A DNA stretch of 64,000 nt. Origin: Escherichia coli. GTDB lineage: Bacteria > Pseudomonadota > Gammaproteobacteria > Enterobacterales > Enterobacteriaceae. The notes below the pieces were generated by a model, which did no database searches, was not told the origin of the DNA, and worked only from the letters and a program-made list of their open reading frames with translations. The translations under genes and the position numbers were made by a program. Positions 1,778 to 24,224 of the stretch are shown here, piece after piece (within the stretch, counting starts at the first letter, position 1; every line of letters begins with the position of its first letter). The DNA lies in assembly GCF_003018255.1 (NCBI RefSeq), contig NZ_CP027440.1; one strand, given 5' to 3'.

Positions 1778-1784
1778 ACATAGC

Positions 1785-1815: not shown

Positions 1816-1822
1816 GAATGGA

Positions 1823-2353: not shown

Positions 2354-2498
2354 AATCATTTCCCTGCAATATGCATAGAGTGCGCAGTTTAAACCAATTC
2401 ATTCGCTGCGCCACCAGGAGGCAGCAAAAATAGGACGCAATTGGACAATTATCGGGCGAAAAGGCAAACCGGGCATTTATATGCCCGGTAAGTTGTTA

Positions 2499-4040: not shown

Positions 4041-4261
4041 GATGGTTTCCCTTACCTTACAAATAATCAATGATGTTTTTATGTTTAAACGCAAAGCTTA
4101 ACGGTCAGGCAGGAGTGAGGCAAGTCTTGATAGTCAAGGGTAAAGAGATGCGGAAAATGAAGCCTTGATCCCTTTTTTCTTCTTTTTGTCTGCTATCAGC
4201 GTAGTTAGCCCTCTGGTATGATGAGTCCAACTTTGTTTTGCTGTGTTATGGAAATCTCACT

Positions 4262-4981: not shown

Positions 4982-5000
4982 TCCCTTCCGTTTAAAAAGC

Positions 5001-5030
5001 AAACCCCTCAAACGAGGGGTTTTGTTGTTT
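5001..5030. terminator. Bidirectional rho-independent terminator between fadR and ycgB
   Basis: Hairpin CCCCTC-AAAC-GAGGGG followed by TTTTGTTGTTTTT on plus and a T-rich run on minus. Confidence 0.7.
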
Positions 5031-6563
5031 TTACAGATTTCCCATTCTCGGCGGGCAACGTTCCAGCAACTCGACGCTGCCGTCTTCGTTTTGCTGTTCC
5101 AGCATTACATCAAATCCCCACAGGCGATGCACATGCTTCAGTACTTCTTTGCGCCCCCGATCTAGCGGTGCGCGATTATGTGGAATGTAACGCAGCGTCA
5201 GCGAACGGTCGCCGCGCAAATCCACGTTCCAGATCTGAATATTCGGCTCCAGATTACTTAAATTATATTGAGACGATAACCGGTTACGGATCTCCCGATA
5301 ACCTTCTTCATTATGAATAGCGGAAATCTCCAGATAATTATGCCGATCGTCATCCAGCACGGTGAAGAAGCGGAAATCACGCATCACTTTCGGTGACAGG
5401 AACTGGCTGATAAAACTCTCATCTTTGAAATCACGCATCGCGAAATGCAGCGTTTCCAGCCAGTCGGAACCGGCGATATCCGGGAACCAGTATTTGTCTT
5501 CTTCCGTTGGCGACTGACAAATCCGTTTAATATCCTGGAACATGGCGAACCCGAGGGCATACGGGTTGATGCCGCTGTACCACGGGCTGTTATAGGGTGG
5601 CTGGAAGACCACATTGGTGTGGCTGTGCAAAAACTCCAGCATAAAACGTTCCGTTACTTTCCCTTCATCATACAGATGGTTAAGGATGGTGTAGTGCCAG
5701 AAGGTCGCCCAGCCTTCGTTCATCACCTGAGTCTGTTTTTGCGGATAAAAATACTGGCTCACCTTACGCACAATACGCAGAATTTCACGCTGCCATGATT
5801 CCAGCAGTGGCGCATTTTTCTCCATAAAATAGAGCAGGTTTTCTTGTGGCTCGGACGGATAGCGGCGCGCTTCAGCAACCGTTTTCTCTTCCTCGCGCTT
5901 CGGCAGGGTACGCCAGAGCATATTGACCTGACTTTGCAGATACTCTTCGCGACTTTTCTGCCGGGCTTTCTCTTCTTGCAGCGAGATTTTTTGCGGGCGT
6001 TTGTACCGGTCCACGCCGTAGTTCATCAGCGCGTGGCACGAGTCCAGAAGCCGTTCTACTTCATCAACGCCATAACGTTCTTCGCACTCGGTAATATATT
6101 TACGGGCAAAAATCAGATAATCGACAATCGAACTGGCGTCGGTCCAGCTACGGAATAAGTAATTGTTTTTGAAGAAAGAGTTATGCCCATAGCAGGCGTG
6201 TGCCATCACCAGCGCTTGCATGGTAATGGTGTTTTCTTCCATCAGGTAAGCGATACACGGGTTAGAGTTAATGACGATTTCATAGGCCAGTCCTTGCTGA
6301 CCGTGCTTATACAGCCGTTCAGTCTCGATAAACTTTTTACCGAATGACCAGTGCGGATAGTTAATTGGCATGCCGACGCTGGAGTAGGCATCCATCATCT
6401 GTTCTGAGGTTATCACTTCAATCTGGTGCGGGTAGGTATCCAGCCGGTAGAGTTTCGCCACCCGGTCTATCTCTGCCAGATAAACATCCAGCAGGTCGAA
6501 CGTCCAGTCGGGTCCATCGCTCAAACGTGTGGTGTCCTTATTCATAGAATCGATCGTCGCCAT
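5031..6563 (-). CDS. ycgB: YcgB, SpoVR-family protein
   Basis: 510-aa ORF recognised as the conserved enterobacterial YcgB at its usual place between fadR and dadA. Confidence 0.85.
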   Translation of the reverse strand: MATIDSMNKDTTRLSDGPDWTFDLLDVYLAEIDRVAKLYRLDTYPHQIEVITSEQMMDAYSSVGMPINYPHWSFGKKFIETERLYKHGQQGLAYEIVINSNPCIAYLMEENTITMQALVMAHACYGHNSFFKNNYLFRSWTDASSIVDYLIFARKYITECEERYGVDEVERLLDSCHALMNYGVDRYKRPQKISLQEEKARQKSREEYLQSQVNMLWRTLPKREEEKTVAEARRYPSEPQENLLYFMEKNAPLLESWQREILRIVRKVSQYFYPQKQTQVMNEGWATFWHYTILNHLYDEGKVTERFMLEFLHSHTNVVFQPPYNSPWYSGINPYALGFAMFQDIKRICQSPTEEDKYWFPDIAGSDWLETLHFAMRDFKDESFISQFLSPKVMRDFRFFTVLDDDRHNYLEISAIHNEEGYREIRNRLSSQYNLSNLEPNIQIWNVDLRGDRSLTLRYIPHNRAPLDRGRKEVLKHVHRLWGFDVMLEQQNEDGSVELLERCPPRMGNL

Positions 6564-6779
6564 ACGCGCACCTCATTGTTGTCGGCGCTCTCTGTGTGGA
6601 GCACCTCATTTCAAGCATAGAACACCTGTTAAAAACCGCGTCGCCGGAGAATTTTTTTCTTTGCGATTTCTTATTATCAGAGTGCCACTAATCCGCTTCT
6701 GAACGGAATTTTATGCTGGATAAAAAGGGCGTTCAGCAGGAGATACTAAAGACGCCATATTGCCGCAGAGTCAGGGAGA

Positions 6780-6795
6780 TGTGAGCCAGCTCACC
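6780..6795 (+). promoter_or_regulatory. Candidate CRP site in dadAX promoter region
   Basis: TGTGAGCCAGCTCACC resembles the CRP consensus TGTGA-N6-TCACA, about 100 nt upstream of dadA; dadAX is known to be CRP-activated. Confidence 0.55.
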
Positions 6796-6847
6796 ATAAA
6801 AAAGCCGCATGTTGAATAATATTTTCAACTGAGTTATCAAGATGTAA

Positions 6848-8191
<1,344 letters not shown>

Positions 8192-8200
8192 GGAAACGAG

Positions 8201-9271
8201 ATGACCCGTCCGATACAGGCCAGCCTCGATCTGCAGGCATTAAAACAGAATCTGTCCATTGTCCGCCAGGCTGCGCCGTACGCGCGCGTCTGGTCGGTGG
8301 TAAAAGCAAACGCTTACGGGCACGGTATTGAGCGTATCTGGAGCGCGCTCGGGGCCACCGATGGCTTTGCATTGCTTAATCTGGAAGAGGCAATAACGTT
8401 ACGTGAGCGCGGCTGGAAAGGACCGATCCTGATGCTGGAAGGATTTTTCCATGCTCAGGATCTGGAGATTTATGACCAGCACCGCCTGACCACCTGCGTA
8501 CACAGCAACTGGCAGCTCAAAGCACTGCAAAATGCGCGGCTAAAAGCACCGTTGGATATTTATCTTAAAGTGAACAGTGGGATGAATCGGTTGGGCTTCC
8601 AGCCCGATCGCGTGCTTACCGTCTGGCAGCAGTTGCGGGCGATGGCGAATGTTGGCGAAATGACCCTGATGTCGCATTTTGCCGAGGCGGAACATCCTGA
8701 TGGAATTTCCAGCGCGATGGCGCGTATTGAGCAGGCGGCGGAAGGGCTGGAGTGTCGGCGTTCGTTGTCCAATTCGGCGGCGACTCTGTGGCACCCGGAA
8801 GCGCATTTTGACTGGGTTCGGCCTGGCATTATTTTGTATGGCGCTTCGCCGTCCGGTCAGTGGCGTGATATCGCCAATACCGGATTACGTCCGGTGATGA
8901 CGCTAAGCAGTGAGATTATTGGTGTCCAGACGCTAAAAGCGGGCGAGCGTGTGGGCTACGGCGGTCGCTATACTGCGCGCGATGAACAGCGAATCGGCAT
9001 TGTCGCCGCAGGATACGCCGACGGTTATCCGCGCCATGCGCCTACCGGTACTCCTGTTTTAGTGGACGGCGTGCGCACCATGACGGTGGGGACCGTCTCG
9101 ATGGATATGCTGGCGGTTGATTTAACGCCTTGCCCGCAGGCGGGGATTGGTACGCCGGTTGAGCTGTGGGGCAAGGAGATCAAAATTGATGATGTCGCCG
9201 CCGCTGCCGGAACGGTGGGCTATGAGTTGATGTGCGCGCTGGCGTTACGTGTCCCGGTTGTGACAGTGTAA
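8201..9271 (+). CDS. dadX: Catabolic alanine racemase
   Basis: 356-aa ORF containing the PLP-lysine motif [10 protein letters not shown]; operonic with dadA. Confidence 0.95.
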
Positions 9272-9327
9272 CTTGTTATCGCTGGATGCGACCAGCGTCG
9301 TATCCAGCGTTACAAAACACATTAAAC

Positions 9328-11112
<1,785 letters not shown>

Positions 11113-11158
11113 TTAGCGGCAGAGACAGCGTTTTACTTAGCCCTGAAGCGTGATTTTT

Positions 11159-12784
<1,626 letters not shown>

Positions 12785-12785
12785 A

Positions 12786-13520
12786 TCAGTCGCGCACTTT
12801 GTCCGCTTTCTCCCGAGCTTCCCGCTCGAGAGAGAAAATAATCCGTTGTAATTGCCGCTCCACCGTCGGGCTGACGTTAAGAAAACGGAAGCTCAGACGG
12901 GGAGTGGTGATGGTTTCATTCCTGCCATCAATCACTTTGCGCTCGCTGATGGAGATTAACTGGGCGTCAAAGTGAAAAACACCCCATTGCCCCATGTTGA
13001 CTTCAATCTGAGCGAAGCGCATGCCTTCGTGCAATCCGGCAGGCTTTGTTGTTTCCAGTAATGCGCCCATGCCGCCTAACGACAAATCATACAGGCGGAA
13101 ACGTAACGTACTGTTATCCGCCAGTTTGGTCTGGCAAAAATATGGCGGATGGAGTGGGGCGGTGATGCGGAAATATCGGCGTCGTTGTACAAACCATAAG
13201 GTGGGAGGCGGTACGGTAATAAATGCCGGAAGCTGCAAGTATTCACTCTGCTGTAGTTGTTCAACAGTAAACTCGACTTTCGCACCCTGAGTTTCGGCGG
13301 TAATGGTAATGTGCTGCGCCTTTAGCACGGCGATGTTGTCTTCGGCCCGGCTGCCGAAATCCAGCACCAGTTTATCCGGAGTTATTGCCAGTATTTTGCT
13401 GATCAGCTGCCCGCCATTCCAGCTAATACGCAAAGGAATTGCGGCTTTGTGCAAATCGCGTAACACGCCCAGGACGGCTAACGGATTTTGTTTCAGGAAC
13501 TGCTCATGGTAATGACTCAC
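12786..13520 (-). CDS. ycgR: YcgR, c-di-GMP-binding flagellar brake protein (PilZ domain)
   Basis: 244-aa ORF with the PilZ motif region RRRYFRI and DLSLGG. Confidence 0.9.
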   Translation of the reverse strand: MSHYHEQFLKQNPLAVLGVLRDLHKAAIPLRISWNGGQLISKILAITPDKLVLDFGSRAEDNIAVLKAQHITITAETQGAKVEFTVEQLQQSEYLQLPAFITVPPPTLWFVQRRRYFRITAPLHPPYFCQTKLADNSTLRFRLYDLSLGGMGALLETTKPAGLHEGMRFAQIEVNMGQWGVFHFDAQLISISERKVIDGRNETITTPRLSFRFLNVSPTVERQLQRIIFSLEREAREKADKVRD

Positions 13521-13720
13521 GCGGAAAAACTCCTGACTGACAAACTGTCTTAGGTTTATCGGTCACAGTTAACAAAACTTAATACAAATGCGTGAATGTT
13601 TTTTACATGTCGTTCTTAAATCAGCCGACATACGCCCAGCATCGATCCCGCCCTTGCCTATACTTAGAGCGTTGACGTAAGCATTTCTTGCGTCCGATTC
13701 ATCGAAACGAGGGCCTGAAC

Positions 13721-13975
13721 ATGGGAATTATTGCCTGGATTATTTTTGGCCTGATAGCCGGCATAATCGCCAAGCTAATCATGCCGGGACGTGATGGTGG
13801 TGGATTTTTCCTGACCTGTATTCTCGGGATAGTCGGTGCGGTGGTCGGCGGCTGGCTGGCGACCATGTTTGGCATTGGCGGCTCCATCAGTGGTTTTAAT
13901 TTGCACAGCTTCCTGGTGGCGGTGGTGGGCGCTATCCTGGTGCTGGGCGTATTCCGCCTTCTGCGAAGAGAATAA
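13721..13975 (+). CDS. ymgE: YmgE, transglycosylase-associated (GlsB/YeaQ/YmgE family) small membrane protein
   Basis: 84-aa glycine-rich membrane peptide MGIIAWIIFGLIAGIIAKLIMPGRDGGGF; start trimmed from the track ORF. Confidence 0.85.
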   Translation: MGIIAWIIFGLIAGIIAKLIMPGRDGGGFFLTCILGIVGAVVGGWLATMFGIGGSISGFNLHSFLVAVVGAILVLGVFRLLRRE

Positions 13976-13987
13976 GATTTTCATAAG

Positions 13988-14020
13988 GCGGATAGCGATA
14001 CATATGCCGCTATCCGCTTT
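13988..14020 (+). terminator. Hairpin terminator after ymgE at the left border of the accessory operon
   Basis: Perfect 10-bp stem GCGGATAGCG / CGCTATCCGC with a 10-nt loop, followed by TTT; lies between the ymgE stop and the receptor gene stop. Confidence 0.55.
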
Positions 14021-14024
14021 CACA

Positions 14025-15995
14025 TCAGAACGTATACTCGATACCTGCCCAGAAATTGCGACCTTCTTCAATAAACCCTTCACTGTAGGCATATTTGGTA
14101 TCAAACAGGTTATTGACCGACGCATTGACGCTGAAGCCATGACCTAAGGTGTAATCGGCTCGAATGTGAGTCACCGCAAAACCGGCGGCTTTTTGTGAAC
14201 CGTCACTGTTGCTGTAGCTGGAGGAACGCGCCTCTTCCGACAGCGTTACGCTTAACGGCTCCCACGGTTTGAGAGTCATCCATGCGGTCATTGTCTGCGT
14301 TGGCAGATCGGTTATCTTGCCGATGTCTTTGCGTTTGGCATCAGCGTGGATCAGGGCGTAGCTCAATCCTACATCCAGTATATTGCTGATTTTCCCCTTA
14401 ATACCGGCATCCAGACCGCTGTAATCCACCGTGCCGCTGTTCTGATTTTGAATGGTATCGGCATCGATATTGTGCGAGAGGATGGCATCACTCACCCGGT
14501 TATAGTAAACGCTGACCTCAAACCCCCAGTCGTGCGTGAAGGCACCATTCCAGGTTAAATCCACCCCGCGCGCGCGTTCCGGCTTGAGCTGCGGGTTAAC
14601 AATCGCTATCTGGTTATACGCAGGTTTGGACGTGGTATAGCGTTCTTTCAGCGTCGGAAAGCGTGTGCGGTCATAGTACGAAAGCGCCAGCGTGTCTTCA
14701 TTGGCAAAGTGGTATTTCCCCATCACCTGCCAGTTAAAAGCTGACTGATTGTTGTCGTCATAATGGGTGATACTGCCATCTTTCTCATGTTTTTTCGCTT
14801 CTACGCTATCGCGCCAGTCATAGCTGATTCCAGCCACGACATCGACATTATCGGCAGCAGCCCATTGATATTCACTGGCGAGCGACCAGGTACGATCTTC
14901 ATAGCGATCGTAAGCGGCGTGCGGCGCACCTTTTTCCCGGTGTACGTCATCTTTCCAGTTAACGGCAAACGACAGCAGATCGTTTTCACGCACATCGGCT
15001 GCCAGTTGTAACCCGGCACCGTCGCTGTAATCGGAATAATGGCTGTAGCTGCCTTTTTTATTTTTCAAATCAGCCAGCGAGTTGTACATCATCAGCGTAT
15101 TTTCAAAGGTATCGCGATACAGCCGACTTTTCAGGGTAAAACGATCGTTTAGTTGGGTCGTTCCCTGATAATAAAAACTTTCTTTGTCATACTCTGGCCA
15201 CTGCCAGTAGCGTGATTTTTGACCACTATTTCCACTGTATGGCGGATTATCTTTTTCACCATCCTGCTTAATGTAAGTCAATGTGTATTCATCGTTTTCG
15301 CGTGGTGTAAAACCGAGCTTCACAATGCCGCGTTTATCATCAGCCGATGAATTAATCATCTTGCCGTGTTTGCCTGCAATATCATTATTTACACCATGCG
15401 GCAGGCCGAGAAAATCCTGCTTTAGCTGGCTACCGCTGACTTGCAAATACCCCAGATCGCTGCTGGCGGCAAATGAAGCATGCATATCGTAGGCATTGTC
15501 CTGGCTACGGCTCCATCCCTGGCGATATCCCAGATTTGCTTCCAGAGGTTTTGTTGGCTTCTGGGTGGTGATATTAATGGCTCCGCCCATCTGATTAGGC
15601 CCCTGAAGCAGCGACGAATACCCTTTGGAAACTTCAACTGCCCCCAAATTGTTGGTCAGAATCCGCGCCAGATCGAGGTTGCCGTCATAGGGAACATAAA
15701 TGGGCACACCGTCGAAATAGACTGGCACCTGACGACTATCAAAGCCACGAACTTTGACCTGTTCTTCGTTGCGGCTACCTGACTTTTGCAGCACCACGCC
15801 GGGGACGACACTTAATGCCTGAGCGACATTCTGTTTATCCAGGGCCTTCATGGTGGGGTGATCGAGAACGGTGGTCGTCGTCGATGATACCGGACTGGAC
15901 CATACGGTCAGCGTGTCACTCTCCTGAGCCGCTAAGGCCTGCTGGGTAAAGGCAAGTGATAATGCTGTGCAGAGATAACGTTTTTTGAGTCTCAT
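14025..15995 (-). CDS. TonB-dependent outer-membrane receptor (accessory, not in K-12 layout)
   Basis: About 656 aa with signal peptide MRLKKRYLCTALSLAFTQQALA, TonB-box-like DTLTVWS near the mature N-terminus, and a C-terminal aromatic residue (…AGIEYTF); start set to the second Met. Confidence 0.85.
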   Translation of the reverse strand: MRLKKRYLCTALSLAFTQQALAAQESDTLTVWSSPVSSTTTTVLDHPTMKALDKQNVAQALSVVPGVVLQKSGSRNEEQVKVRGFDSRQVPVYFDGVPIYVPYDGNLDLARILTNNLGAVEVSKGYSSLLQGPNQMGGAINITTQKPTKPLEANLGYRQGWSRSQDNAYDMHASFAASSDLGYLQVSGSQLKQDFLGLPHGVNNDIAGKHGKMINSSADDKRGIVKLGFTPRENDEYTLTYIKQDGEKDNPPYSGNSGQKSRYWQWPEYDKESFYYQGTTQLNDRFTLKSRLYRDTFENTLMMYNSLADLKNKKGSYSHYSDYSDGAGLQLAADVRENDLLSFAVNWKDDVHREKGAPHAAYDRYEDRTWSLASEYQWAAADNVDVVAGISYDWRDSVEAKKHEKDGSITHYDDNNQSAFNWQVMGKYHFANEDTLALSYYDRTRFPTLKERYTTSKPAYNQIAIVNPQLKPERARGVDLTWNGAFTHDWGFEVSVYYNRVSDAILSHNIDADTIQNQNSGTVDYSGLDAGIKGKISNILDVGLSYALIHADAKRKDIGKITDLPTQTMTAWMTLKPWEPLSVTLSEEARSSSYSNSDGSQKAAGFAVTHIRADYTLGHGFSVNASVNNLFDTKYAYSEGFIEEGRNFWAGIEYTF

Positions 15996-16020
15996 AGAAT
16001 AAATTCCGTTTAACAAAGAA

Positions 16021-16875
16021 TTAAATAGAGGCTGCGGGTTGCAGACTGACTTTAATGTCAGCTGGTGTCGCGTAATAAGGCGCGGAGGTAATAAAAAGGC
16101 GAATGCCGCAGTCGAGGTAATTTTTGAGTGTTGTCAGATTAATTCCGCCGGTCAGAGCCAGCGTGCAGTGAGGAGCCAGCGACGGTGCTATTTGCGCAAT
16201 TTCAGTTGCCTGTTGCGGATTAAATTTGTCGAGCTGAAGTACGTCTGGTTGCGCGCGTAACGCGGCGATTGCCTCTTTCGGCGTGTCGGCTTCAACAACT
16301 ATTTTCTTCTCGGGTGCGTGGCGGCGTAACTGATTGATTGCGCCTGACCAGTCCTGATTGTCATGAAGAAAATGACGGTGGTTGGCAAACAATAATATGG
16401 TTTCCGCACATCCGGCACGATGAATCAGTCCTCCGGCAGCCAGAATTGCCTGCGAGGCCAGTAAGCGGGTGCCCGGAATTGCTTTTCGGGTGCAGGCGAT
16501 ATTGCCATCAGGGTAACGTTCACGAAGTAACGCCAGCATTTGAGCGAGATAATCAGAAACACCGCAACTCCACTCCAGCACATTCTGGACTGCCTTCCAT
16601 CCCTGATGAAGTGCTGCGGCATTACCCTGCGCACGGATTAGCCGCTGACCCGCGTTCGCTTGTGAACCGTCGCTGACTGCGTCATCAATAGTTAATCCCA
16701 GCGTAGTTAACATCTTACACGCGACAGAAATTCCGCTGACGCAGCCGCCCTGACGGTGAAAAAACTCTATATAGCCATGCTGGTGTCCAATATTTAATGC
16801 TCGCGTGGTCAGGTCACCGCCCTGGATATCTTCCAGAAGTAACGCATCGATTTGTGCCTGAGAAAGGAAAATCAT
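16021..16875 (-). CDS. ModD / NadC-like (quinolinate phosphoribosyltransferase family) protein
   Basis: 284-aa ORF with blocks that align by eye to E. coli NadC (LLEDIQGGDLTT; TRKAIPGTRLLASQAILAAGG..NHR; VEADTPKEA..LQLDKF; LALTGGINLTTL); 4-nt ATGA overlap with the upstream methyltransferase gene. Confidence 0.75.
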   Translation of the reverse strand: MIFLSQAQIDALLLEDIQGGDLTTRALNIGHQHGYIEFFHRQGGCVSGISVACKMLTTLGLTIDDAVSDGSQANAGQRLIRAQGNAAALHQGWKAVQNVLEWSCGVSDYLAQMLALLRERYPDGNIACTRKAIPGTRLLASQAILAAGGLIHRAGCAETILLFANHRHFLHDNQDWSGAINQLRRHAPEKKIVVEADTPKEAIAALRAQPDVLQLDKFNPQQATEIAQIAPSLAPHCTLALTGGINLTTLKNYLDCGIRLFITSAPYYATPADIKVSLQPAASI

Positions 16876-17684
16876 CGCAGTGCCTCTTGCGGTACGCTAT
16901 CCCACCAGATGAGCGCCCAGTCGCGGCTGGCAGGGGCGAGGGCACGAGCATCTTGTTGTTGATACCAGCGATATAACCGCTCACGCTCATCGTCGTTAAG
17001 CGCGCCCAGACTCCAGCTGACGTTCTGCTCAAAACGTTCCCAGGTGCTGTTATCCTGTTGGCAATTTTGTCCGCGGATAAAATCAACGTGAGCATAAATT
17101 CCCATCTGATACAGGACGTTGAGCGCAAAGATATAGTTGGGTAATTCGACCACTTCCCGACCAGCCGCCCGCTGAATGGCTGGAGAGACGAACGAGGTGC
17201 TGACCAGATGAGTCGTATAGACGCGAAGCCGTGCCTGATTATTCAGTTTGCTCATTGCCTGGCGCATATCAGCCACCAGAGTGGAGCGGGAAGCCACGGC
17301 AATATCGCAGCGTGGCAGGTCACTCCAGTCCTCTTCCCAGGCGCGCTGGATCCAGTGGACATTGTCTGCCTTTAGCGCGGCGGCGCGACGGGCGGCAACG
17401 TTCAGCATCCCCTGACTGTAATCAACGCCATAAATCGTCGTGAGTTTGTCCGCCAGCGCCAGCGATACGGTACCCGGTCCGCAGCCCATATCGAATAAGG
17501 TTTGCGCGCCTTGCAGGTCAATTTTTGAGGTCAGTTGTTGCAGGTAGCTGTCCGTCGGCGAGGCGCAATTTTCCGCCATTTTTTCCGCCCGTTGATCCCA
17601 GTGATCCGGCGTTTTTTCTGTGCGATGGGCCAGCCTGAGTTGCTGAAGGTAAAGGTCTGCAAAATCAATATCGTCAATGAGCAT
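16872..17684 (-). CDS. Class I SAM-dependent methyltransferase
   Basis: 270-aa ORF with Rossmann motif I LFDMGCGPGTVSLALA and a downstream acidic motif (VDYSQGML); operonic between the ABC ATPase and the ModD-like gene. Confidence 0.75.
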   Translation of the reverse strand: MLIDDIDFADLYLQQLRLAHRTEKTPDHWDQRAEKMAENCASPTDSYLQQLTSKIDLQGAQTLFDMGCGPGTVSLALADKLTTIYGVDYSQGMLNVAARRAAALKADNVHWIQRAWEEDWSDLPRCDIAVASRSTLVADMRQAMSKLNNQARLRVYTTHLVSTSFVSPAIQRAAGREVVELPNYIFALNVLYQMGIYAHVDFIRGQNCQQDNSTWERFEQNVSWSLGALNDDERERLYRWYQQQDARALAPASRDWALIWWDSVPQEALR

Positions 17685-17693
17685 GATTTTTCC

Positions 17694-18452
17694 TTAGTGC
17701 TTAATTGCAGAGAGGTGATGGTGAATCTGGTCGGCAGAAACCCGGTACAGGGCAGCCAGTTTTTTCGTTGTTAACTGTTCGGTCGGTAAGCCTTGTGTTA
17801 CTCGTCCATCTGGCTCTACCTGGATAATGCTGTCGGCAATGGCGTTTGCATGGAGCGGATGATGAGTCGACATTAACATTGTCATGCCGTTATTTTTGAG
17901 CTGCGCCAGCGTGTCCAGAAGTTGGATCTGATGACCGAAATCGAGGCTAGAGGCAGGCTCATCCAGTAATAACAAGCGCGGTTGCTGGACGAGTGCACGG
18001 GCGATTAAAGCCAGCTGACGTTCACCGCCGCTAAGCGTATTCCAGCGTCGTGTCGCCAGATGCAAAATGCCCAGCTTTTCCAGTTGCTCCGTTGCTTTCA
18101 GGCGTTCTTGCTTACCGGGAACGGAAAAAGCGCCTATGGTGGGGGCCTGGCCCATCAACACCATATCCAGCACACTAAAAGCAAAAATGCCGTCGTGCGC
18201 CTGCGGCACCCAGGCAATAGCCTGCGCGCGCTGGCGATGGCTGAGTGTCTGCACAGGGAGGCTATCCAGTAAGATCTCGCCTTTTAATAACGGTATAACG
18301 CCAAGAATGGAGCGCATGAGTGTGGTTTTGCCGCAACCATTGGCTCCTAACAGACAACAAATTGTTCCTTGCGACAGGGTGAAGGACACGTCGCGTAGCA
18401 CCGGATGGCGGGAGTAACCCAGAGACGCATGACGGACGGCAAGCAAAGTCAC
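17694..18452 (-). CDS. ABC transporter ATP-binding protein (FecE/FepC-like)
   Basis: Walker A GANGCGKTT, ABC signature LSGGERQ and Walker B LLLLDEP are present; start assigned to GTG in a GTGA overlap with the permease stop (the track ORF is extended to 18590). Confidence 0.8.
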   Translation of the reverse strand: MTLLAVRHASLGYSRHPVLRDVSFTLSQGTICCLLGANGCGKTTLMRSILGVIPLLKGEILLDSLPVQTLSHRQRAQAIAWVPQAHDGIFAFSVLDMVLMGQAPTIGAFSVPGKQERLKATEQLEKLGILHLATRRWNTLSGGERQLALIARALVQQPRLLLLDEPASSLDFGHQIQLLDTLAQLKNNGMTMLMSTHHPLHANAIADSIIQVEPDGRVTQGLPTEQLTTKKLAALYRVSADQIHHHLSAIKH

Positions 18453-19429
18453 TGGCGACCTCCGCGTAACAACAAAAACAGGAAAAACGGTGCGCCAACA
18501 AAAGCGGTCAGAATGCCAAGTGGGATTTCTGTTGTTCCAATGCTGCGTGCCAGCGTATCGGTAAGCAGGAGCAGAATCGCGCCAGTACACATTGCCATGG
18601 GCAACAGCTGCTGATGGTTATGACCGGTCAACAAGCGGGCAATGTGCGGAACGACCAGGCCGACCCAACCAATTATGCCCGCTATTGCTACCGTGCTGGC
18701 GGTGATGAGTGTGGCACAGACAATCAATCCAAAGCGCAGACGTGTCACGTTCAGTCCCAGCGAACGGGCTTCGTCGTCGGAAAGCGTGAGTAAATTCATG
18801 CGCCAGCGGAGAAAAAACAGGGGCAAGGAGCCTATGAGAATGATCGGTGCAGCATAGCAGAGATCGCGTAAGGTCACGGTGGACAGCCCCCCCAGCAACC
18901 AGAAGGTAATTGACGGTAACTGGGTATAAGGATCGGCCAGCGTTTTTATTAGCGATATCCCCGCTCCGCACAACGTTCCTAACGCAATGCCTACCAGCAC
19001 CAGGGTTAAGATCGGATCGTGGCGGGTCACCCGACGCGTAATCAACCAGACGCCCGCGACCACCATCAGCCCGCCGCAAAATGCGTACAGCTGGATGTAA
19101 ACAATGGATAATCCCCACAGGATTGCCGCGCAGGCACCAAGTCCGGCACCGGCGGAGACGCCTAAAATATCCGGTGACACTAAGGGATTACGGAACATTC
19201 CCTGATAGGTGGTTCCGGCCCCTGCCAGCGCCGCGCCCAGAAACAGCGCAGCAAGAATACGCGGCACGCGGATTTGCCAGAAGACAATTTGTTCCTGCAC
19301 AGTAACATTTTCTTGACGAAGAATGAGCGCCAGCAGTTGCTGCATATCGAGATGATAAGCCCCACTTACGGCGGCAAAAGTGATACTGATAGCTGCCAGC
19401 AGCAAAATACATCCGTTTACGGTTCTCAT
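18449..19429 (-). CDS. ABC transporter permease (FecCD/BtuC family)
   Basis: 326-aa polytopic membrane protein typical of iron-chelate/B12-type permeases; start overlaps the stop of the upstream binding-protein gene by 1 nt. Confidence 0.8.
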   Translation of the reverse strand: MRTVNGCILLLAAISITFAAVSGAYHLDMQQLLALILRQENVTVQEQIVFWQIRVPRILAALFLGAALAGAGTTYQGMFRNPLVSPDILGVSAGAGLGACAAILWGLSIVYIQLYAFCGGLMVVAGVWLITRRVTRHDPILTLVLVGIALGTLCGAGISLIKTLADPYTQLPSITFWLLGGLSTVTLRDLCYAAPIILIGSLPLFFLRWRMNLLTLSDDEARSLGLNVTRLRFGLIVCATLITASTVAIAGIIGWVGLVVPHIARLLTGHNHQQLLPMAMCTGAILLLLTDTLARSIGTTEIPLGILTAFVGAPFFLFLLLRGGRQ

Positions 19430-20451
19430 TAGCTCGCCACCAATTTTTGATAGTCGGCGTCACTTAATGGGCAATGCCAGAACAGTTGGGCGTAATGCTG
19501 CATGTCACTTTTAAACTGGCGATTGATGGCGGGATCCAGCCAGGCGTGAAGTCTGCGTAATCCCAGAAGACGGTTGATTCCCGGCGGGGCATCCAGCCAG
19601 CCAAAGGGCAGGCCACTTAAAAATAAGATGCGTTGTTCCGCAACCGCTTTCACGCCCTGCCAGAGAGGATCACGACGAATAAAATCTGCAGTAACGGCCT
19701 CCTGAACCAGAATAATATCCGGCTGCCAGCGCAGGAGATTTTCCATGGAAACCTGTGTCAGACCGTGGCGATCGGCTATTTGCGCGACGTTGTGCAAACC
19801 TAATAATTCCGCCGCCTCGGTATGCAACGAACCCTGTAAGCCCGTTTCCAGCCCTCGAGGACCGCGCGCAGCATAAAAGCTGAGATTAGCGGCGGGTGAG
19901 GTGGCGAATGCCTGAGCTTCACCAACGAAGCGGCTGGCGAGATTGGCTTGTTCTGCGGCGCGGTGCTCTTCGCCTAACGTTTTGCCAAGCGTTGTTAACT
20001 GTTCTGCTGATTGTTCCAGTTTCCCGTTAAGCAATAACCAGGGTATTTGTGTCTGTTCGCTAACCTGCCGTGCCTGGGAGATCCAGGTTTCATCCGTATT
20101 GCCGCAATCAACGACCAAATCGGGATGTAACGCCATAAGCCCTTCCAGCGAGAGTGTACTGGCGCGCCCGGCGAGTCGTCCCAGCCTGGGGAACTGGCGA
20201 ATGTGCTCTGGCAATGGAATTAATGCCTGACGGGCAAAATCAAAAGAGGAAAAACCGACCATTTTTTCTGGCGCGACAGCCAGCAATAGTAAATCGGCGG
20301 GCGCGCCTGCGCTGACGATGCGTGTAATGTTTTGGGCTTCGGGAAGCGTCAGTGAGGCCCAGAATTTGACTGATTGTGCAAAGGACGGCAGATGATGCAG
20401 GAACAATGTCGACGCAAGAATCTGTGTAAACCTCCGTCTGGTTAGTGACAT
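19429..20451 (-). CDS. Periplasmic substrate-binding protein (class III, FecB/BtuF-like)
   Basis: Signal peptide MSLTRRRFTQILASTLFLHHLPSFA with a twin-arginine-like TRRRF; start chosen at the Met preceded by AGGA 7 nt upstream; first gene of the operon. Confidence 0.75.
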   Translation of the reverse strand: MSLTRRRFTQILASTLFLHHLPSFAQSVKFWASLTLPEAQNITRIVSAGAPADLLLLAVAPEKMVGFSSFDFARQALIPLPEHIRQFPRLGRLAGRASTLSLEGLMALHPDLVVDCGNTDETWISQARQVSEQTQIPWLLLNGKLEQSAEQLTTLGKTLGEEHRAAEQANLASRFVGEAQAFATSPAANLSFYAARGPRGLETGLQGSLHTEAAELLGLHNVAQIADRHGLTQVSMENLLRWQPDIILVQEAVTADFIRRDPLWQGVKAVAEQRILFLSGLPFGWLDAPPGINRLLGLRRLHAWLDPAINRQFKSDMQHYAQLFWHCPLSDADYQKLVAS

Positions 20452-20463
20452 AAGTAATATCCT

Positions 20464-20482
20464 GATAATTAAAACCGCTATA
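20464..20482 (-). promoter_or_regulatory. Candidate Fur box upstream of the accessory transport operon
   Basis: GATAATTAAAACCGCTATA matches about 13 of 19 positions of the Fur consensus GATAATGATAATCATTATC by hand alignment; a TTGACA hexamer lies further upstream on the operon strand. Confidence 0.3.
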
Positions 20483-20787
20483 TACTTACACATATAGCGA
20501 AAAAGATCATGTTTGATGTCAAAATTTGTCTAAAGAGACGGAATGATTTGCTTGTTGCTTAAATAACACTTTGTTCCACAAGAAAATTGTCAGGGAGAAT
20601 GGGGAGTGGGGGAAAATATAAATAGAGGTGTAATGATTAACAAGTTGATAAAATAAAATTAAAATCTTCTCTAATAAAAGAAAATAAAGGCATAGACCGT
20701 AGAAAGAGTGGTATTTGGTATTTCGTGGTGAAGAAAGAGCAATGCCAATTTTATGCACGTAATGGCATTGCTCGATATACAGTAAAG

Positions 20788-22485
20788 TTAAGGCGTAGGT
20801 TCCGCCTCATTTTGTTTTACCGGCTGTGTTGTTGATTCACTGAGTGGACGCGTCGCCGGAACATTGTCGCACGGTTGCTCTTTCGGGCAGATCAAATCCA
20901 GCATTTTCAGCGTCACGCCATTGGTCCAGCCAAAGCCATCCTGTAATGGATATTCGCCACCGCCGCCCCCTGTTCCGGTGGTGCTGACATCATATTTTTC
21001 CACCAGCTTTTTCTCCCGGTCATAGGTGTGCTGAACATTGGTCAGGAAGTGCCAGCTAATGTCCATCGCCACCTCTTTTTGCCCGTAGTTTTGTAATCCT
21101 TCTGTCGCGACCCACTGCAACGGTGCCCAGCCGTTTGGCGCATCCCATTGTTGCCCACTTTTCACCGACGTGGTGTTCAGGCCGCCTGGTTGCAGCAGAT
21201 GTGTTTTCGTCGCCGTCGCCATTTTGCTGGCGCGATCTTTCGCTGCCGCATTGACGTACAGCGGGAACAGGGCGGCCGCGGTTAACTGATTGCGCACTTT
21301 ATGACTTTTCAGGTCGTAATCGGCATACCAGCCTTGTTGATCGTTCCACAGGTATTTTTCGATCCCTTTTTGACGGGCATTCGCCAGCGTTTCGTACTGG
21401 TTTGCCATCGCGTTATCTCCGGCAGCTTTGCTGGCGCGGGCGAGGATTTTTTCCATTTTAAACATCAGGCTGTTCAGATCGACCGGTACGATGCTGGTGG
21501 TGCGTAAGGTATTTAACTGCTGCGGATTGTCCATCCAGCGCGAGCTGAAATCCCAGCCAGACGCAGCGGCAGAGCGCAGGTCGCGGTAAATTTCAGTGGC
21601 AGGTCGATTCGGATTGCTTTTGGCGGTGGCAATATCTTCCACCCATGACTCTGGTCGTGGCGTATCGCGATCGTCCCAGTAGCGGTTGAGAAGGGTACCA
21701 TCCTGAAGTTTGACAACGCGTTTTTCCTGTTGTCCGGCTTGCAGGTTTTCAACACCGTCCATCCAGTAAGCATATTCTTTTTGCATTTGCGGCAGGTATT
21801 GCTTCAACGCGGCATCGCCTTCATGCTGCGCCAGTAACTCTACCATCAGGGCAAAGAATGGCGGTTGTGAGCGGCTTAAATAGTAACTGCGGTTGCCGTT
21901 GGGAATATGCCCGTAAGTGTCTATTTCATGAGCAAAATTGGCCACCATATCCGCGACTTTATCCCAGTGACCACTTTCGGCAAGCCCTAACATGGTGAAG
22001 TAACTGTCCCAGTAATATACCTCGCGAAAACGTCCGCCCGGCACAACATAAGGTTCCGGCAGCGGTAACAGAGAATCCCATTTTTCGGTATTTTCGGTAG
22101 AACGCGTTAATACCGGCCAAAGTCCGTCAATATGTTCGCGTAGTGATTGCCCCTCTGGCGGAACATATTTCTCGCCCTCTTTCGGCAGGGTGAAATTGAC
22201 GTTAACGAAATGGCGTAGATCAAATCCGCTCTGGTTTTGCTGCATCCGATAATCAGCAAGGATCATCAGCGGATCGCTGTTCGGCACGGCATCGGCAAAG
22301 GTTTTTTGGTCCGGAAAAAGTTTGGCGTTTTGCACATCATTAAACAGCGGCCCTAATAAAATATCAGGCGGCTGTGGCGTTACCGGTGTTTCTTCTGCCT
22401 GCACCGATAGCGCAGCGAAACACAAAAAGATGCAGGCTGGAATTAACGCCATTTTTAGCGGGCGAGAAGCTGCGGGGGATTTCAT
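20788..22485 (-). CDS. treA: Periplasmic trehalase
   Basis: 565-aa ORF recognised as TreA (signal peptide, then [22 protein letters not shown]). Confidence 0.95.
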
Positions 22486-22805
22486 CAATCATTCTCCTTT
22501 GGCGAAACCGAATAAAACGGTATTCAAGTATCAGAAAACCTTAGTTCAGGATCGCACTAGCTGCATGATCGAAATCTCATTCTGCGAACGGTCAGGCATT
22601 TTAGAAAAGGGAATTAAAGGGATAAATAACGTCGAAATAGAGTGATCAAATAACGTCTGTTTGTTAGCCAGCCAGCGGCGTTGGGTTCGCGATTAGCGCC
22701 GAAAAAATCATCATGATTTGGTAAAAAATATAACAGGTAGTTAAAAATCATCCGTGCAGAGTAAATAGCCGGATGGCATCAGAACGATGCCATCCGAACG
22801 GTGGT

Positions 22806-24224
22806 TTAACCCTGACGGCTGAAACGTTGCGTTTTAACGTCCAGCGTTAGCGTTTCTTCTGGTTGTATCGCATACAGTTTCTCACCCTGCTGGCAAATCC
22901 AGCCAATCCCCAGTTCACGGGCGATCAGGGCGCTGTGGGATAGCGGACTTCCGGCGCTAAGGCAGATACCTTTTACAACCGCCGGATCCAGTTGCAGTAT
23001 TGTGGAGGGATAGATGTTCTCCGCCAGTAGAATAGTTGGCGAGTTAAACTGCGGGAGTTCTTCTTTCGTTTGGGTCAGGTGGACCAGGGTGCGATGCAGA
23101 AGATCGTCCACATCAATATAGCGAGCCTGTAGATATTCATCATCCAGTTGCTGGTATTGCTGGCTAAGTTCTTTAAGAACTTGCTGCCAGGCATATTCTG
23201 CCGTGCAATGTTCATGCTGAAGGAGTTCGCTTGCCGCCGCCAGCAGTTCCGGATCATCTAACAGTGTATGGTGACCAGAAAAGATTGCGGCAATATCGTC
23301 AAGCCCGCTGGCTTCTGCTTTCGCTGTTAACGTCATCAGATCTAATAACGTGAAGTCAATGGCCTGGCGTAATCGTTCTTGTTCTTCATCCACGGTCAGG
23401 GTTGATTTTGCCTGTACCGTACATAAAACCGGTTGATAATAAAAGGCTTTACCCGAAACAGGCGGAACGGGACGCAGAATAGGTGGAGCAACTTCCTCCG
23501 TTTCACCAAAGTTATCTTCAGCCAGCTGACGGAAAGCGATCAGTGCCTCTTCAGCTTCTGGCCCTTTCGCAATCAGGCGCAGCGTATCGTTATAGCGAAC
23601 TTGTAGTAACGCAATCTGGTTAATACTCTCCGGTGTGACGCATTTGCCGTTTTTCTCCAGCAACATATCGGCATTAAATGTCGATAAGGTATAAACCAGC
23701 CGGGAGGCCGGACGTACATGCAGGCCGTTACGGTTTTTTATGACCACCGCCAGAGAACGGGCTTCTTCATCGTACGAAGGACATGTGTCAGAGATTTCAG
23801 TGTTGGAGGAGGGTAAACCCAGTTGTTCACGTTTGGCTTCCAGCGCATGCATGGCGTCAAAGATCACTTTGTCGATCTCCGCCCCCGAGGCCGCGCTAAC
23901 CGTTGCTGCCAGTGTACCTTCGACCAACGGCGCAGCACACAAACGTACTTTTGCGGCGATCTCGGGAGCCAGCAATTCCAGCGCAGTTTCAGCACTCAAT
24001 AATGCGCTTCCTATATCCATCATGACCAGCACATGGTCGGTATCGGCAACAGATTCGATGGCCTCCATCACTTTGACGGCATCGGTACCAATGGGATTTT
24101 GTGGATCGTCAATTCCCGCGGCAATGGCGATTTTACAATTATCACTCATTAACATCTGACGGGCTAATTCACCGACGCCTTCTCCCAGTCGGCTGCTATG
24201 TGAAACTATGACCAGGTTTACCAT
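22806..24224 (-). CDS. dhaM: DhaM, dihydroxyacetone kinase phosphotransfer subunit
   Basis: 472-aa multidomain protein MVNLVIVSHSSRLGEGV... recognised as DhaM (EIIA-Man-like, HPr-like and EI-like domains). Confidence 0.9.
   Translation of the reverse strand: MVNLVIVSHSSRLGEGVGELARQMLMSDNCKIAIAAGIDDPQNPIGTDAVKVMEAIESVADTDHVLVMMDIGSALLSAETALELLAPEIAAKVRLCAAPLVEGTLAATVSAASGAEIDKVIFDAMHALEAKREQLGLPSSNTEISDTCPSYDEEARSLAVVIKNRNGLHVRPASRLVYTLSTFNADMLLEKNGKCVTPESINQIALLQVRYNDTLRLIAKGPEAEEALIAFRQLAEDNFGETEEVAPPILRPVPPVSGKAFYYQPVLCTVQAKSTLTVDEEQERLRQAIDFTLLDLMTLTAKAEASGLDDIAAIFSGHHTLLDDPELLAAASELLQHEHCTAEYAWQQVLKELSQQYQQLDDEYLQARYIDVDDLLHRTLVHLTQTKEELPQFNSPTILLAENIYPSTILQLDPAVVKGICLSAGSPLSHSALIARELGIGWICQQGEKLYAIQPEETLTLDVKTQRFSRQG

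What the first reader, a model, noticed from the sequence alone, without database searches (positions are those of the whole stretch)
16021..17684. ModD/NadC-like protein plus class I SAM methyltransferase embedded in a metal-chelate importer operon
Chelate-utilisation operons usually carry esterases, reductases or heme-degrading enzymes. Here the only enzymes are a quinolinate-phosphoribosyltransferase homolog (ModD family, function unknown) and a Rossmann-type methyltransferase, translationally coupled by an ATGA overlap. This suggests cytoplasmic processing of the imported ligand, possibly a pyridine-carboxylate-type chelator given the NadC-like fold; that substrate guess is speculation.
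Basis: inference. Interest (0 to 1): 0.8.

Follow-up and report, generated by a model that had tools for sequence, protein, structure and literature searches.

The report
Molybdenum-regulated TonB importer with enzyme pair
The ModD and methyltransferase genes are real and sit inside a six-gene E. coli uptake operon, but that operon looks like a molybdenum-starvation (ModE-controlled) uptake system rather than an iron-chelate one, and the enzyme pair also travels with ordinary molybdate transporters in distant bacteria.

Summary
On the minus strand, 17684-16872 encodes a class I SAM methyltransferase (MT). 16875-16021 encodes a ModD protein (TIGR01334, 501 bits), and the two genes share an ATGA overlap. 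They lie in a tight operon: binding protein, permease, ATPase, MT, ModD, TonB-dependent receptor. The operon is a 6.7-kb accessory island between ymgE and treA, present in about 39% of complete E. coli genomes.

The interpretation needs revision.
- A perfect ModE-type operator (CGCTATAT-N7-TATATAGCG, 20499-20476) lies 24 nt upstream of the first gene.
- It has the architecture of the K-12 modA and moaA sites and recurs at the same place in at least eight genera.
- I found no convincing Fur box and no riboswitch.
- The permease and ATPase are closest to H. influenzae MolB and MolC, the type II molybdate/tungstate importer.
- ModD occurs fused to NifQ and to ModC-like ATPases.
- The overlapping MT-ModD pair also sits next to modB-modC in Campylobacterota, inside a full modA-modB-modC operon in one Sulfuricurvum genome.

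The operon is therefore most likely a molybdenum (or tungsten) acquisition system, with MT-ModD as a conserved cytoplasmic Mo-linked module of unknown chemistry. Processing of an imported pyridine-carboxylate chelator is not supported, but a Mo-chelate substrate is not excluded.

The parts
20517..20522 (-). -35-like hexamer TTGACA of the presumed operon promoter
   Evidence: Read directly from the sequence. It lies 17 nt upstream of the operator. Function is inferred, not shown.
20476..20499 (-). ModE-type operator, CGCTATAT-GTGTAAG-TATATAGCG, a near-perfect palindrome ending 24 nt upstream of the SBP start codon
   Evidence: It has 0 mismatches to CGNTATAT-N7-TAYATANCG and is the only site in the 64-kb window at 2 mismatches or fewer (0.12 expected). 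It has the same architecture as the MG1655 modA site CGTTATATTGTCGCCTACATAACG and the moaA site CGCTATATACATGATTACATAGCG. It is conserved at the same position in orthologous loci of Shewanella, Pectobacterium, Morganella, Proteus, Providencia, Citrobacter and Escherichia sp..
19429..20451 (-). Periplasmic substrate-binding protein (Peripla_BP_2, cluster A) with a twin-arginine-like signal (MSLTRRRFTQ...)
   Evidence: RefSeq start. PDB sequence hits are 4pag (1.3e-25) and MolA/HI1472 (1.3e-7). The AlphaFold model has pLDDT 87.5. Foldseek ranks 4pag first, then MolA 3psa. The RR motif is conserved in most orthologues.
18449..19429 (-). FecCD-family permease, closest to MolB (HI1471)
   Evidence: PDB search: 2nq2_A MolB at 8.9e-64, against FhuB 1e-50, HmuU 3e-48 and BtuC 7e-42.
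17694..18452 (-). ABC ATPase, closest single-domain solved relative MolC (HI1470)
   Evidence: 2nq2_C at 3.4e-36. GTGA start/stop overlap with the permease gene.
16872..17684 (-). Class I SAM-dependent methyltransferase of a dedicated family that accompanies Mo-type importers
   Evidence: Pfam Methyltransf_25/31/11/12. No NCBIfam family is above its cutoff; the best is CpaM at 43 bits against 180. The SAM motif D65-x-G67-x-G69-x-G71, D88 and S132-R133-S134 are invariant from E. coli to Sulfuricurvum. The model has pLDDT 89.6.
16021..16875 (-). ModD protein (type II phosphoribosyltransferase fold, NadC paralogue)
   Evidence: TIGR01334 at 501 bits, cutoff 179. Alignment to M. tuberculosis NadC 1qpn. 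Family invariants R130, K131, H152, and near-invariant R153 and F163.
14025..15995 (-). TonB-dependent outer-membrane receptor (656 aa) with a TonB-box-like DTLTVW after the signal peptide
   Evidence: RefSeq annotation. Only sub-threshold hits to the siderophore, heme and B12 receptor families. Orthologues lie next to MT-ModD in Enterobacterales and Campylobacterota.
13988..14017 (.). Perfect 10-bp-stem hairpin (GCGGATAGCG...CGCTATCCGC) between the convergent receptor and ymgE genes, a probable bidirectional terminator
   Evidence: Read from the sequence. Not tested.

Best explanation
The six genes form one operon that is an accessory molybdenum (or tungsten) acquisition system of E. coli.

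Proposed mechanism, with the status of each step:
1. Regulation (inferred). When molybdate is sufficient, molybdate-ModE binds the palindrome at 20499-20476, which overlaps the presumed -10/+1 region, and represses the operon. Mo starvation de-represses it. This rests on operator identity and phylogenetic footprinting.
2. Outer membrane (inferred). The TonB-dependent receptor captures the Mo species at the cell surface.
3. Inner membrane (inferred by homology). A probably Tat-exported, MolA-like binding protein delivers the Mo species to a MolB/MolC-like type II ABC importer.
4. Cytoplasm (inferred). The translationally coupled MT and ModD act downstream of import as a Mo-linked module. This rests on conserved motifs, on MT-ModD lying next to modB-modC in Campylobacterota (inside modA-modB-modC in one genome), and on ModD fusions to NifQ and to ModC-like ATPases.

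Both enzymes look active. The MT has a complete SAM-binding site and an invariant Ser-Arg-Ser just after strand 4, which would suit an anionic substrate. ModD keeps the Arg/Lys/His/Glu/Asp set of NadC but not the quinolinate 3-carboxylate Lys, so it probably binds or phosphoribosylates something other than quinolinate. The exact chemistry is unknown.
For: Operator:
- Perfect match, unique in the window.
- Same architecture and position as the K-12 modA site, and same half-sites as the moaA site.
- Across 80 ModD loci (1.32 Mb) there are 86 sites at 2 mismatches or fewer, against about 4 expected. Nearly all lie directly upstream of SBP, receptor, ModA, ModD or ModE genes.

Other regulation:
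- The best Fur-box match is 13/19, reached by 23% of shuffles.
- No riboswitch was found.

Transporter homology:
- Permease closest to MolB, ATPase to MolC, SBP fold to 4pag and then MolA.
- MolBC-A imports molybdate, and molB is repressed by molybdate (PMC4031551).
- H. influenzae keeps modD next to molABC (PMC3928620).

Genomic context:
- A TOBE gene lies upstream of the Pectobacterium orthologue.
- ModD contexts in 80 species: 27 six-gene clusters, 6 MT-ModD with ModB/ModC, and about 24 ModD with type I ModB-like transporters.
- Sulfuricurvum has ModE ... ModA-MT-ModD-x-ModB-ModC, with ModA and ModB above the NCBIfam cutoffs.

Fusions:
- ModD-NifQ.
- ABC ATPase-ModD.
- ModD-TOBE x2.

Literature on ModD:
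- modABCD and nif clusters (PMC4999443).
- modE-modD-modABC in Geobacter (PMC2700814).
Against: - No experiment was done. ModE binding, Mo-dependent expression and Mo transport are all inferred.
- The SBP is only 20-21% identical to MolA, so its ligand could differ.
- A TonB-dependent receptor with a type II importer is the classic layout for chelates, not for free oxyanions.
- Some Campylobacterales clusters carry extra enzymes (a second MT and a luciferase-like monooxygenase). That hints at small-molecule chemistry.
- No biochemical role of a methyltransferase or a phosphoribosyltransferase in molybdate handling is known.
- MT and ModD each occur without the other. Shewanella has MT only. 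Pasteurellaceae have ModD only.
Confidence: 0.7

Rival explanations
1. Molybdophore version of the first reader's idea. The receptor, binding protein and permease import molybdate bound to an organic chelator, such as a catecholate or a pyridine-carboxylate. MT and ModD then modify that ligand in the cytoplasm to release Mo. Mo(VI) cannot be released by simple reduction in the way Fe(III) is.
For: - The TonB-dependent receptor + Peripla_BP_2 + FecCD architecture is typical of chelate import.
- ModE control fits this reading as well as free-oxyanion uptake.
- The MT is more tightly linked to the receptor/type II importer than ModD is.
- Campylobacterales clusters add a second MT and an LLM monooxygenase next to the receptor.
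- ModD keeps carboxylate-binding His/Arg and Arg/Lys residues.
Against: - The overlapping MT-ModD pair lies inside modA-MT-modD-modB-modC in Sulfuricurvum L087. There ModA is a bona fide molybdate-binding protein, and no receptor gene was detected among the labelled genes of this end-truncated locus (14 kb held of a 62-kb contig).
- ModD alone travels with type I transporters, NifQ and TOBE/ModE.
- The nearest characterised SBP, MolA, binds the bare oxyanion (PMC4031551).
- The E. coli island has no biosynthesis or export genes for a chelator.
Confidence: 0.2
2. Iron (or other metal) chelate importer, as the databases annotate it ('iron ABC transporter substrate-binding protein'), with two ligand-processing enzymes. 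The ModE-like palindrome would be a coincidence.
For: Database names. Weak family-level similarity of the receptor to siderophore and heme receptors, and of the SBP to FecB-like proteins.
Against: - No Fur box better than chance.
- All iron-specific NCBIfam hits are far below their cutoffs.
- The operator is conserved across genera at both the SBP and receptor promoters.
- MolB is the best solved relative of the permease by 13 orders of magnitude in E-value.
- There are independent Mo links through TOBE, ModD, NifQ and ModE.
Confidence: 0.05
3. Housekeeping reading. ModD is a spare NadC making nicotinate mononucleotide, the MT is unrelated, and both are passengers in the operon.
For: ModD has the NadC fold and most NadC active-site residues.
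Against: - It scores below the NadC cutoff (136 against 198 bits) and well above the ModD cutoff.
- The Lys that binds the 3-carboxylate (human K171, PMC4726147) is Phe in nearly all ModDs.
- The MT-ModD overlap is conserved across two phyla.
- The genomic context is always Mo-related.
Confidence: 0.03

Closest known systems
Haemophilus influenzae MolBC-A (HI1470/HI1471/HI1472), a type II ABC molybdate/tungstate importer, with adjacent modD (HI1473)
   Same: - The permease and ATPase are the best solved relatives.
- The SBP has the same cluster A fold, and MolA is the nearest characterised structure.
- modD is adjacent in both (PMC3928620).
- Expression is repressed by molybdate in H. influenzae (PMC4031551), and an operator predicts the same here.
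   Different: - The SBP is only about 20% identical to MolA. In Glaesserella the MolBCA-type and E. coli-type sets coexist as paralogues around one modD.
- The E. coli-type system adds a TonB-dependent receptor and a methyltransferase.
- MolA has low affinity (about 100 uM). A TonB-gated, ModE-repressed system is more likely a scavenger. That is an inference.
E. coli ModE regulon (modABC, moaABCDE operators)
   Same: Same operator architecture and half-sites, and the same position just upstream of the first gene as at modA.
   Different: The target is an accessory island absent from K-12. ModE binding here has not been shown. I could not retrieve earlier in-silico ModE regulon surveys (Studholme & Pau 2003, RegPrecise) to see whether this site was already predicted.
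NadC / quinolinate phosphoribosyltransferase
   Same: Two-domain type II PRTase fold. Equivalents of M. tuberculosis R139, K140, H161, R162, E201, D222 and the Gly-Gly phosphate loop are kept.
   Different: Below the NadC model cutoff. R105 becomes Lys, K172 becomes Phe, D173 becomes Ala, and the C-terminal motif is TSAPY. The context is Mo, not NAD.
Rhodobacter-type modABCD and nif-linked modD
   Same: Same ModD family (TIGR01334), linked to Mo supply (PMC4999443; PMC8600466).
   Different: In those systems ModD accompanies a type I ModABC transporter or nif genes, without the methyltransferase or a receptor.
TonB-dependent chelate importers (BtuB-BtuFCD, FhuA-FhuDCB, Hmu)
   Same: Same three-compartment layout and the same protein families.
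   Different: Regulated by a ModE-type operator instead of Fur or a B12 riboswitch. The accessory enzymes are a methyltransferase and a PRTase paralogue, not esterases, reductases or heme oxygenases.

Membership tests
ModD (TIGR01334) | Whole-protein score above the curated cutoff of 178.85 bits | tested here: met
   501.4 bits over residues 2-278.
ModD (TIGR01334) | Genomic association with molybdenum transport or utilisation genes | tested here: met
   ModE operator, MolBC-like importer, and the contexts of 80 ModD loci.
NadC / quinolinate phosphoribosyltransferase (TIGR00078) | Score above the curated cutoff of 198.4 bits | tested here: not met
   135.7 bits.
NadC / quinolinate phosphoribosyltransferase (TIGR00078) | Lys contacting the 3-carboxylate of quinolinate/NaMN (human K171 = M. 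tuberculosis K172) | tested here: not met
   The aligned residue is F163, near-invariant in ModDs. Role of K171 from PMC4726147.
NadC / quinolinate phosphoribosyltransferase (TIGR00078) | PRPP/carboxylate residues R139, K140, H161, R162, E201, D222 (M. tuberculosis numbering; the residue roles are partly from memory of Sharma et al. 1998) | tested here: met
   R130, K131, H152, R153, E195 and D216 align with them.
MolBC-A type II molybdate/tungstate importer | Permease and ATPase orthologous to MolB and MolC | tested here: inconclusive
   MolB and MolC are the best solved relatives. However, Glaesserella carries both a MolBCA-type set (47% identical permease) and an E. coli-type set (61%), so the E. 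coli system is a paralogous sister.
MolBC-A type II molybdate/tungstate importer | Binding protein binds molybdate/tungstate | not testable with these tools
   Only fold and sequence similarity are available: 20-21% identity, Foldseek E 6e-15, TM 0.66-0.68.
ModE regulon | Operator of the type CGnTATAT-N7-TAyATAnCG at the promoter | tested here: met
   0 mismatches, unique in the window. Compared with the K-12 modA and moaA sites.
ModE regulon | Operator conserved upstream of orthologous operons | tested here: met
   Sites at 2 mismatches or fewer lie upstream of the SBP gene, the receptor gene, or both, in Escherichia, Citrobacter, Enterobacter, Proteus, Morganella, Providencia, Pectobacterium, Shewanella and Glaesserella.
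ModE regulon | ModE-molybdate binding and Mo-dependent transcription | not testable with these tools
   Needs EMSA or footprinting and expression assays.
Fur-regulated iron-chelate importer | Fur box at the promoter | tested here: not met
   Best match 13/19, reached by 23% of shuffles and by 12% of 340-bp windows.
Fur-regulated iron-chelate importer | Receptor or SBP reaches a curated siderophore, heme or B12 family cutoff | tested here: not met
   TIGR01783 at 127 against 223.5; TIGR01785 at 126 against 317; TonB-B12 at 80 against 600; FecB-like at 32 against 320.
Class I SAM-dependent methyltransferase | Rossmann fold with the glycine-rich motif I and an acidic residue at the end of strand 2 | tested here: met
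   D65-M-G67-C-G69-P-G71 and D88 are invariant. Model pLDDT 89.6. Foldseek hits are small-molecule N-, O-, C- and S-methyltransferases.
Class I SAM-dependent methyltransferase | Assignment to a characterised methyltransferase subfamily | tested here: not met
   The best NCBIfam hit, CpaM, scores 43 bits against a cutoff of 180. PDB sequence hits are at E >= 1e-4. TM-scores do not exceed 0.58.

The most novel reading that the evidence does not exclude
MT and ModD carry out a previously unrecognised enzymatic step of bacterial molybdenum metabolism, for example making or modifying a phosphoribosylated or methylated small-molecule Mo carrier that feeds Moco or FeMo-co synthesis. On this reading the receptor is the first dedicated TonB-dependent molybdenum (or tungsten) gate described in Enterobacteriaceae. 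It would give about 40% of E. coli strains, and most Proteus, Providencia and Morganella, a high-affinity Mo scavenging route alongside ModABC.
Probability: 0.3. Interest if true: 0.85.

Novelty: new variant of a known kind. Interest (0 to 1): 0.66.

Why it matters
Molybdenum-cofactor enzymes (nitrate, DMSO, TMAO and formate respiration) drive Enterobacteriaceae blooms in the inflamed gut, and tungstate is being explored to block them. Reviews I could read list only ModABC, the low-affinity MolBC-A, sulfate transporters and an unidentified non-specific route for Mo uptake (PMC7759655; PMC9171197; PMC4031551).

A ModE-controlled, TonB-dependent system that databases label 'iron' would be an overlooked strain-variable fitness factor, and a possible entry route for tungstate. 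It is present in a large minority of E. coli and in many uropathogens.

It also places ModD, whose function has been unknown since 1993, together with its methyltransferase partner in a genetically tractable organism.

Tried and rejected
- Fur box scan of the promoter: no better than chance.
- Rfam scan of 13000-23000 for cobalamin, Moco or other riboswitches: nothing.
- Generic promoter/terminator scan: uninformative. The hairpin it flagged at 20500-20475 is the operator palindrome.
- The E. coli fit iron system as an identity for the locus: rejected, because fitABCDE-fitR has no ModD or MT.
- Literature searches combining ModD, TonB-dependent, methyltransferase, molybdate, tungstate and ModE: no paper describes this operon. 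The DUF2478 search gave one irrelevant hit.
- P. mirabilis modA-mutant transcriptome paper: modD is not mentioned and no supplements are held.
- Papers that could not be retrieved: Tirado-Lee 2011, Schauer 2008, Studholme & Pau 2003.
- PDB sequence and Foldseek searches with the MT: only generic small-molecule methyltransferases, so no substrate clue.
- The 60-sequence ModD alignment was too diverse for the locus scan. A 12-sequence alignment worked.
- Source names for the receptor, SBP and MT proteins: only generic labels.
- Pfam on two Campylobacterales neighbours: a weak TOBE hit and nothing.
Full report
**Observation**

The two ORFs exist exactly as described, on the minus strand. 17684-16872 encodes a 270-aa protein and 16875-16021 a 284-aa protein. 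The stop of the first and the start of the second share ATGA.

The 284-aa protein has both quinolinate-phosphoribosyltransferase domains. It is a clear member of the ModD family: TIGR01334 at 501 bits against a cutoff of 179. It falls below the NadC cutoff, at 136 against 198 bits. The 270-aa protein is a class I SAM methyltransferase that matches no curated subfamily. Its best hit is CpaM at 43 bits against 180.

**Anatomy of the operon**

The window is E. coli chromosome, 99.9% identical to strain JNE23-011. The pair is the fourth and fifth gene of a six-gene, co-directional cluster:

| Gene | Coordinates (minus strand) |
|---|---|
| Binding protein (SBP) | 20451-19429 |
| FecCD permease | 19429-18449 |
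| ABC ATPase | 18452-17694 |
| Methyltransferase (MT) | 17684-16872 |
| ModD | 16875-16021 |
| TonB-dependent receptor | 15995-14025 |

- The junctions are TAATG, GTGA, a 9-nt gap, ATGA and a 25-nt gap. Co-transcription is therefore very likely, though it is not shown.
- A perfect 10-bp-stem hairpin (14017-13988) separates the receptor gene from the convergent ymgE.
- The cluster is an accessory island. K-12 has 622 bp containing ycgY in place of window 14049-20786.
- 2139 of 5426 complete E. coli genomes carry at least 80% of the region.

**Regulation**

The 336-bp region upstream of the SBP gene has no Rfam match. Its best Fur-box match is 13/19, which 23% of shuffles reach.

It does contain the palindrome CGCTATAT-GTGTAAG-TATATAGCG at 20499-20476, ending 24 nt before the start codon.

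- The MG1655 modA operator region reads CGTTATAT-TGTCGCC-TACATAACG at the equivalent position.
- The moaA promoter has CGCTATAT-ACATGAT-TACATAGCG.
- That these two K-12 sites are ModE operators is established knowledge, which I am recalling and could not re-read here.
- The window's site has 0 mismatches to CGNTATAT-N7-TAYATANCG. It is the only site in 64 kb at 2 mismatches or fewer, against 0.12 expected.

The same motif sits directly upstream of the SBP gene in orthologous loci of Shewanella, Pectobacterium, Morganella, Proteus, Providencia, Citrobacter and other Escherichia. Where there is an intergenic gap, it appears again upstream of the receptor gene.

Across 80 ModD-centred loci (1.32 Mb) there are 86 sites at 2 mismatches or fewer, against roughly 4 expected. 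Nearly all lie in front of SBP, receptor, ModA, ModD or ModE genes. I take ModE control as well supported in silico.

**The transporter**

- Among solved structures the permease is closest to H. influenzae MolB (8.9e-64). FhuB, HmuU and BtuC follow at 1e-50 to 7e-42.
- The ATPase is closest to MolC among single-domain proteins.
- The SBP hits an uncharacterised Sulfurospirillum protein, 4pag (1.3e-25), and more weakly MolA/HI1472.
- A confident SBP model (pLDDT 87.5) gives the same order by fold: 4pag first, then MolA.

MolBC-A imports molybdate, and its binding protein binds molybdate and tungstate with low affinity. molB is repressed by molybdate through a factor the authors called unknown (PMC4031551). 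In H. influenzae modD lies next to molABC (PMC3928620).

In Glaesserella a MolBCA-type set and an E. coli-type set coexist around one modD, each with a ModE-like site. The E. coli system is therefore a paralogous sister of MolBC-A, extended by a receptor and a methyltransferase.

The Pectobacterium orthologue has a TOBE (molbindin-type) gene just upstream.

**ModD**

Aligned to M. tuberculosis NadC, ModD keeps the equivalents of R139, K140, H161, R162, E201, D222 and the Gly-Gly phosphate loop. It differs at three positions: R105 becomes Lys, K172 becomes Phe and D173 becomes Ala.

In 60 diverse ModDs, R130, K131 and H152 are invariant, and R153 and F163 are nearly so. In human QPRT the equivalent Lys (K171) and R161 hold the 3-carboxylate (PMC4726147). 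ModD is therefore probably a functional ligand-binding or catalytic barrel whose ligand is not quinolinate.

Its associations are consistently with Mo:

- 27 of 80 species-level loci have the six-gene cluster.
- 6 have MT-ModD with ModB/ModC.
- About 24 have ModD with type I ModB-like transporters. Others have ModE/TOBE or NifQ nearby.
- Representative proteins include ModD-NifQ, ABC-ATPase-ModD and ModD-TOBE x2 fusions.
- In Photobacterium damselae a stand-alone modD has a perfect operator 20 nt upstream and is divergent from a COG0523 GTPase gene.
- The literature places modD in modABCD, in nif clusters and beside modE.

**The methyltransferase**

Its homologues form a narrow family, with 165 hits at E <= 1e-5. 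Every genomic context I examined is a Mo-type importer:

- the six-gene cluster;
- Shewanella SBP-permease-ATPase-MT-receptor, without ModD;
- a metagenomic receptor-DUF2478-SBP-permease-ATPase-MT cluster;
- in Sulfuricurvum and other Campylobacterales, an overlapping MT-ModD pair followed by ModB-ModC.

One Sulfuricurvum genome reads ModE ... ModA-MT-ModD-x-ModB-ModC, with ModA and ModB above the NCBIfam cutoffs.

The SAM motif (D65, G67, G69, G71), D88, and a Ser132-Arg133-Ser134 triplet after strand 4 are invariant from E. coli to Sulfuricurvum, at 29-31% overall identity. The model is confident (pLDDT 89.6). It resembles small-molecule methyltransferases only generically, with TM-scores no higher than 0.58.

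The enzyme looks active, and the Arg/Ser cluster would suit an anionic substrate. That last point is an inference.

**Synthesis**

The best-supported reading is a ModE-repressed, TonB-dependent, MolBC-like molybdenum (or tungsten) acquisition operon, with MT-ModD as a conserved cytoplasmic Mo-linked module. The pair also lies next to modB-modC in Campylobacterota (inside a full modABC operon in one genome), and ModD alone accompanies type I molybdate-type transporters elsewhere, so I think it unlikely that these enzymes exist to dismantle an imported organic chelator.

The metal and the proposed role need revising.

The main rival is a Mo-chelate substrate with ligand modification, which I put at about 0.2. 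It is kept alive by three things: the receptor/type II layout, the weak SBP-MolA similarity, and the extra enzymes next to the receptor in Campylobacterales (a second MT and a luciferase-like monooxygenase).

**Novelty and limits**

Databases call these proteins 'iron ABC transporter', 'TonB-dependent receptor', 'methyltransferase' and 'ModD'. None of my ten full-text searches found a description of this operon, of a ModE-regulated TonB-dependent receptor, or of a function for the MT-ModD pair. Recent Mo-uptake overviews do not mention them.

I could not read Tirado-Lee 2011, Studholme & Pau 2003 or RegPrecise, so an earlier in-silico prediction of the operator cannot be excluded.

Everything about regulation, substrate and enzyme chemistry is inferred from sequence, structure prediction and comparative genomics. 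No step has been shown experimentally.

Noticed in passing
window 20451-20370 (SBP N-terminus); L002-L042 SBP orthologues: The binding protein starts MSLTRRRFTQILAS..., a twin-arginine-like motif. RR-x-F-L is conserved in Proteus, Providencia, Pectobacterium, Citrobacter and Shewanella orthologues but not in Morganella. This suggests Tat export of a folded SBP.
   Followed up: partly
window 14025-14048 versus MG1655 (L093 about 3533-3556): Homology between K-12 and the window runs 24 nt into the 3' end of the receptor gene. K-12 may therefore have lost the island by deletion, leaving a stub. ycgY occupies the replaced segment.
   Followed up: partly
L059 (Glaesserella australis) 1100-11900: One modD is flanked by three units, each with a ModE-like site: receptor-ATPase-MT, MolB-MolC-MolA-ModD, and E. 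coli-type SBP-permease. The site upstream of the molB orthologue suggests ModE is the 'unknown factor' behind molybdate repression of molB reported for H. influenzae.
   Followed up: partly
L074 (Campylobacterales MAG) 287-11783: A larger Mo cluster: unknown ORF, SBP, a second 205-aa methyltransferase, an FMN-dependent luciferase-like monooxygenase, receptor, three unknown ORFs, MT, ModD, a small weak-TOBE ORF, ModB, ModC. The extra enzymes hint at small-molecule chemistry linked to Mo uptake.
   Followed up: partly
P0315, P0263, P0268, P0288 (representative proteins): Natural fusions occur: ModD-NifQ, ABC ATPase (WtpC/CysA/ModC-like)-ModD, and truncated ModD-2xTOBE. The last may be a frameshift chimera.
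   Followed up: yes
L045 (Photobacterium damselae) 7821-9861: A stand-alone modD has a perfect ModE-type site 20 nt upstream. It is divergent from a COG0523 (CobW/ZigA-like) GTPase gene and TldD/PmbA-like genes.
   Followed up: partly
L003-L005 (metagenomic contigs): The MT homologue (40-43% identity) lies in receptor-DUF2478-SBP-permease-ATPase-MT clusters that lack ModD and have no ModE-type site at 3 mismatches or fewer. How these clusters are regulated is unknown.
   Followed up: no
L012 (contig assigned to a Collinsella MAG): A 3.2-kb contig in a Collinsella metagenome-assembled genome carries ATPase-MT-ModD at 98-100% identity to E. coli. This is most likely binning contamination.
   Followed up: no
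protein collection, cluster of window:16872-17684: The 90%-identity cluster that holds the MT also lists ModD sequences as members and as its representative. This is probably an artefact of read-through or fused gene calls across the ATGA overlap.
   Followed up: no
window 20736-20772: An 11-bp-stem hairpin (GAGCAATGCCA...TGGCATTGCTC) followed by TTTCTT lies just after the treA stop codon. It is probably the treA terminator and would insulate the island promoter from treA transcription.
   Followed up: no
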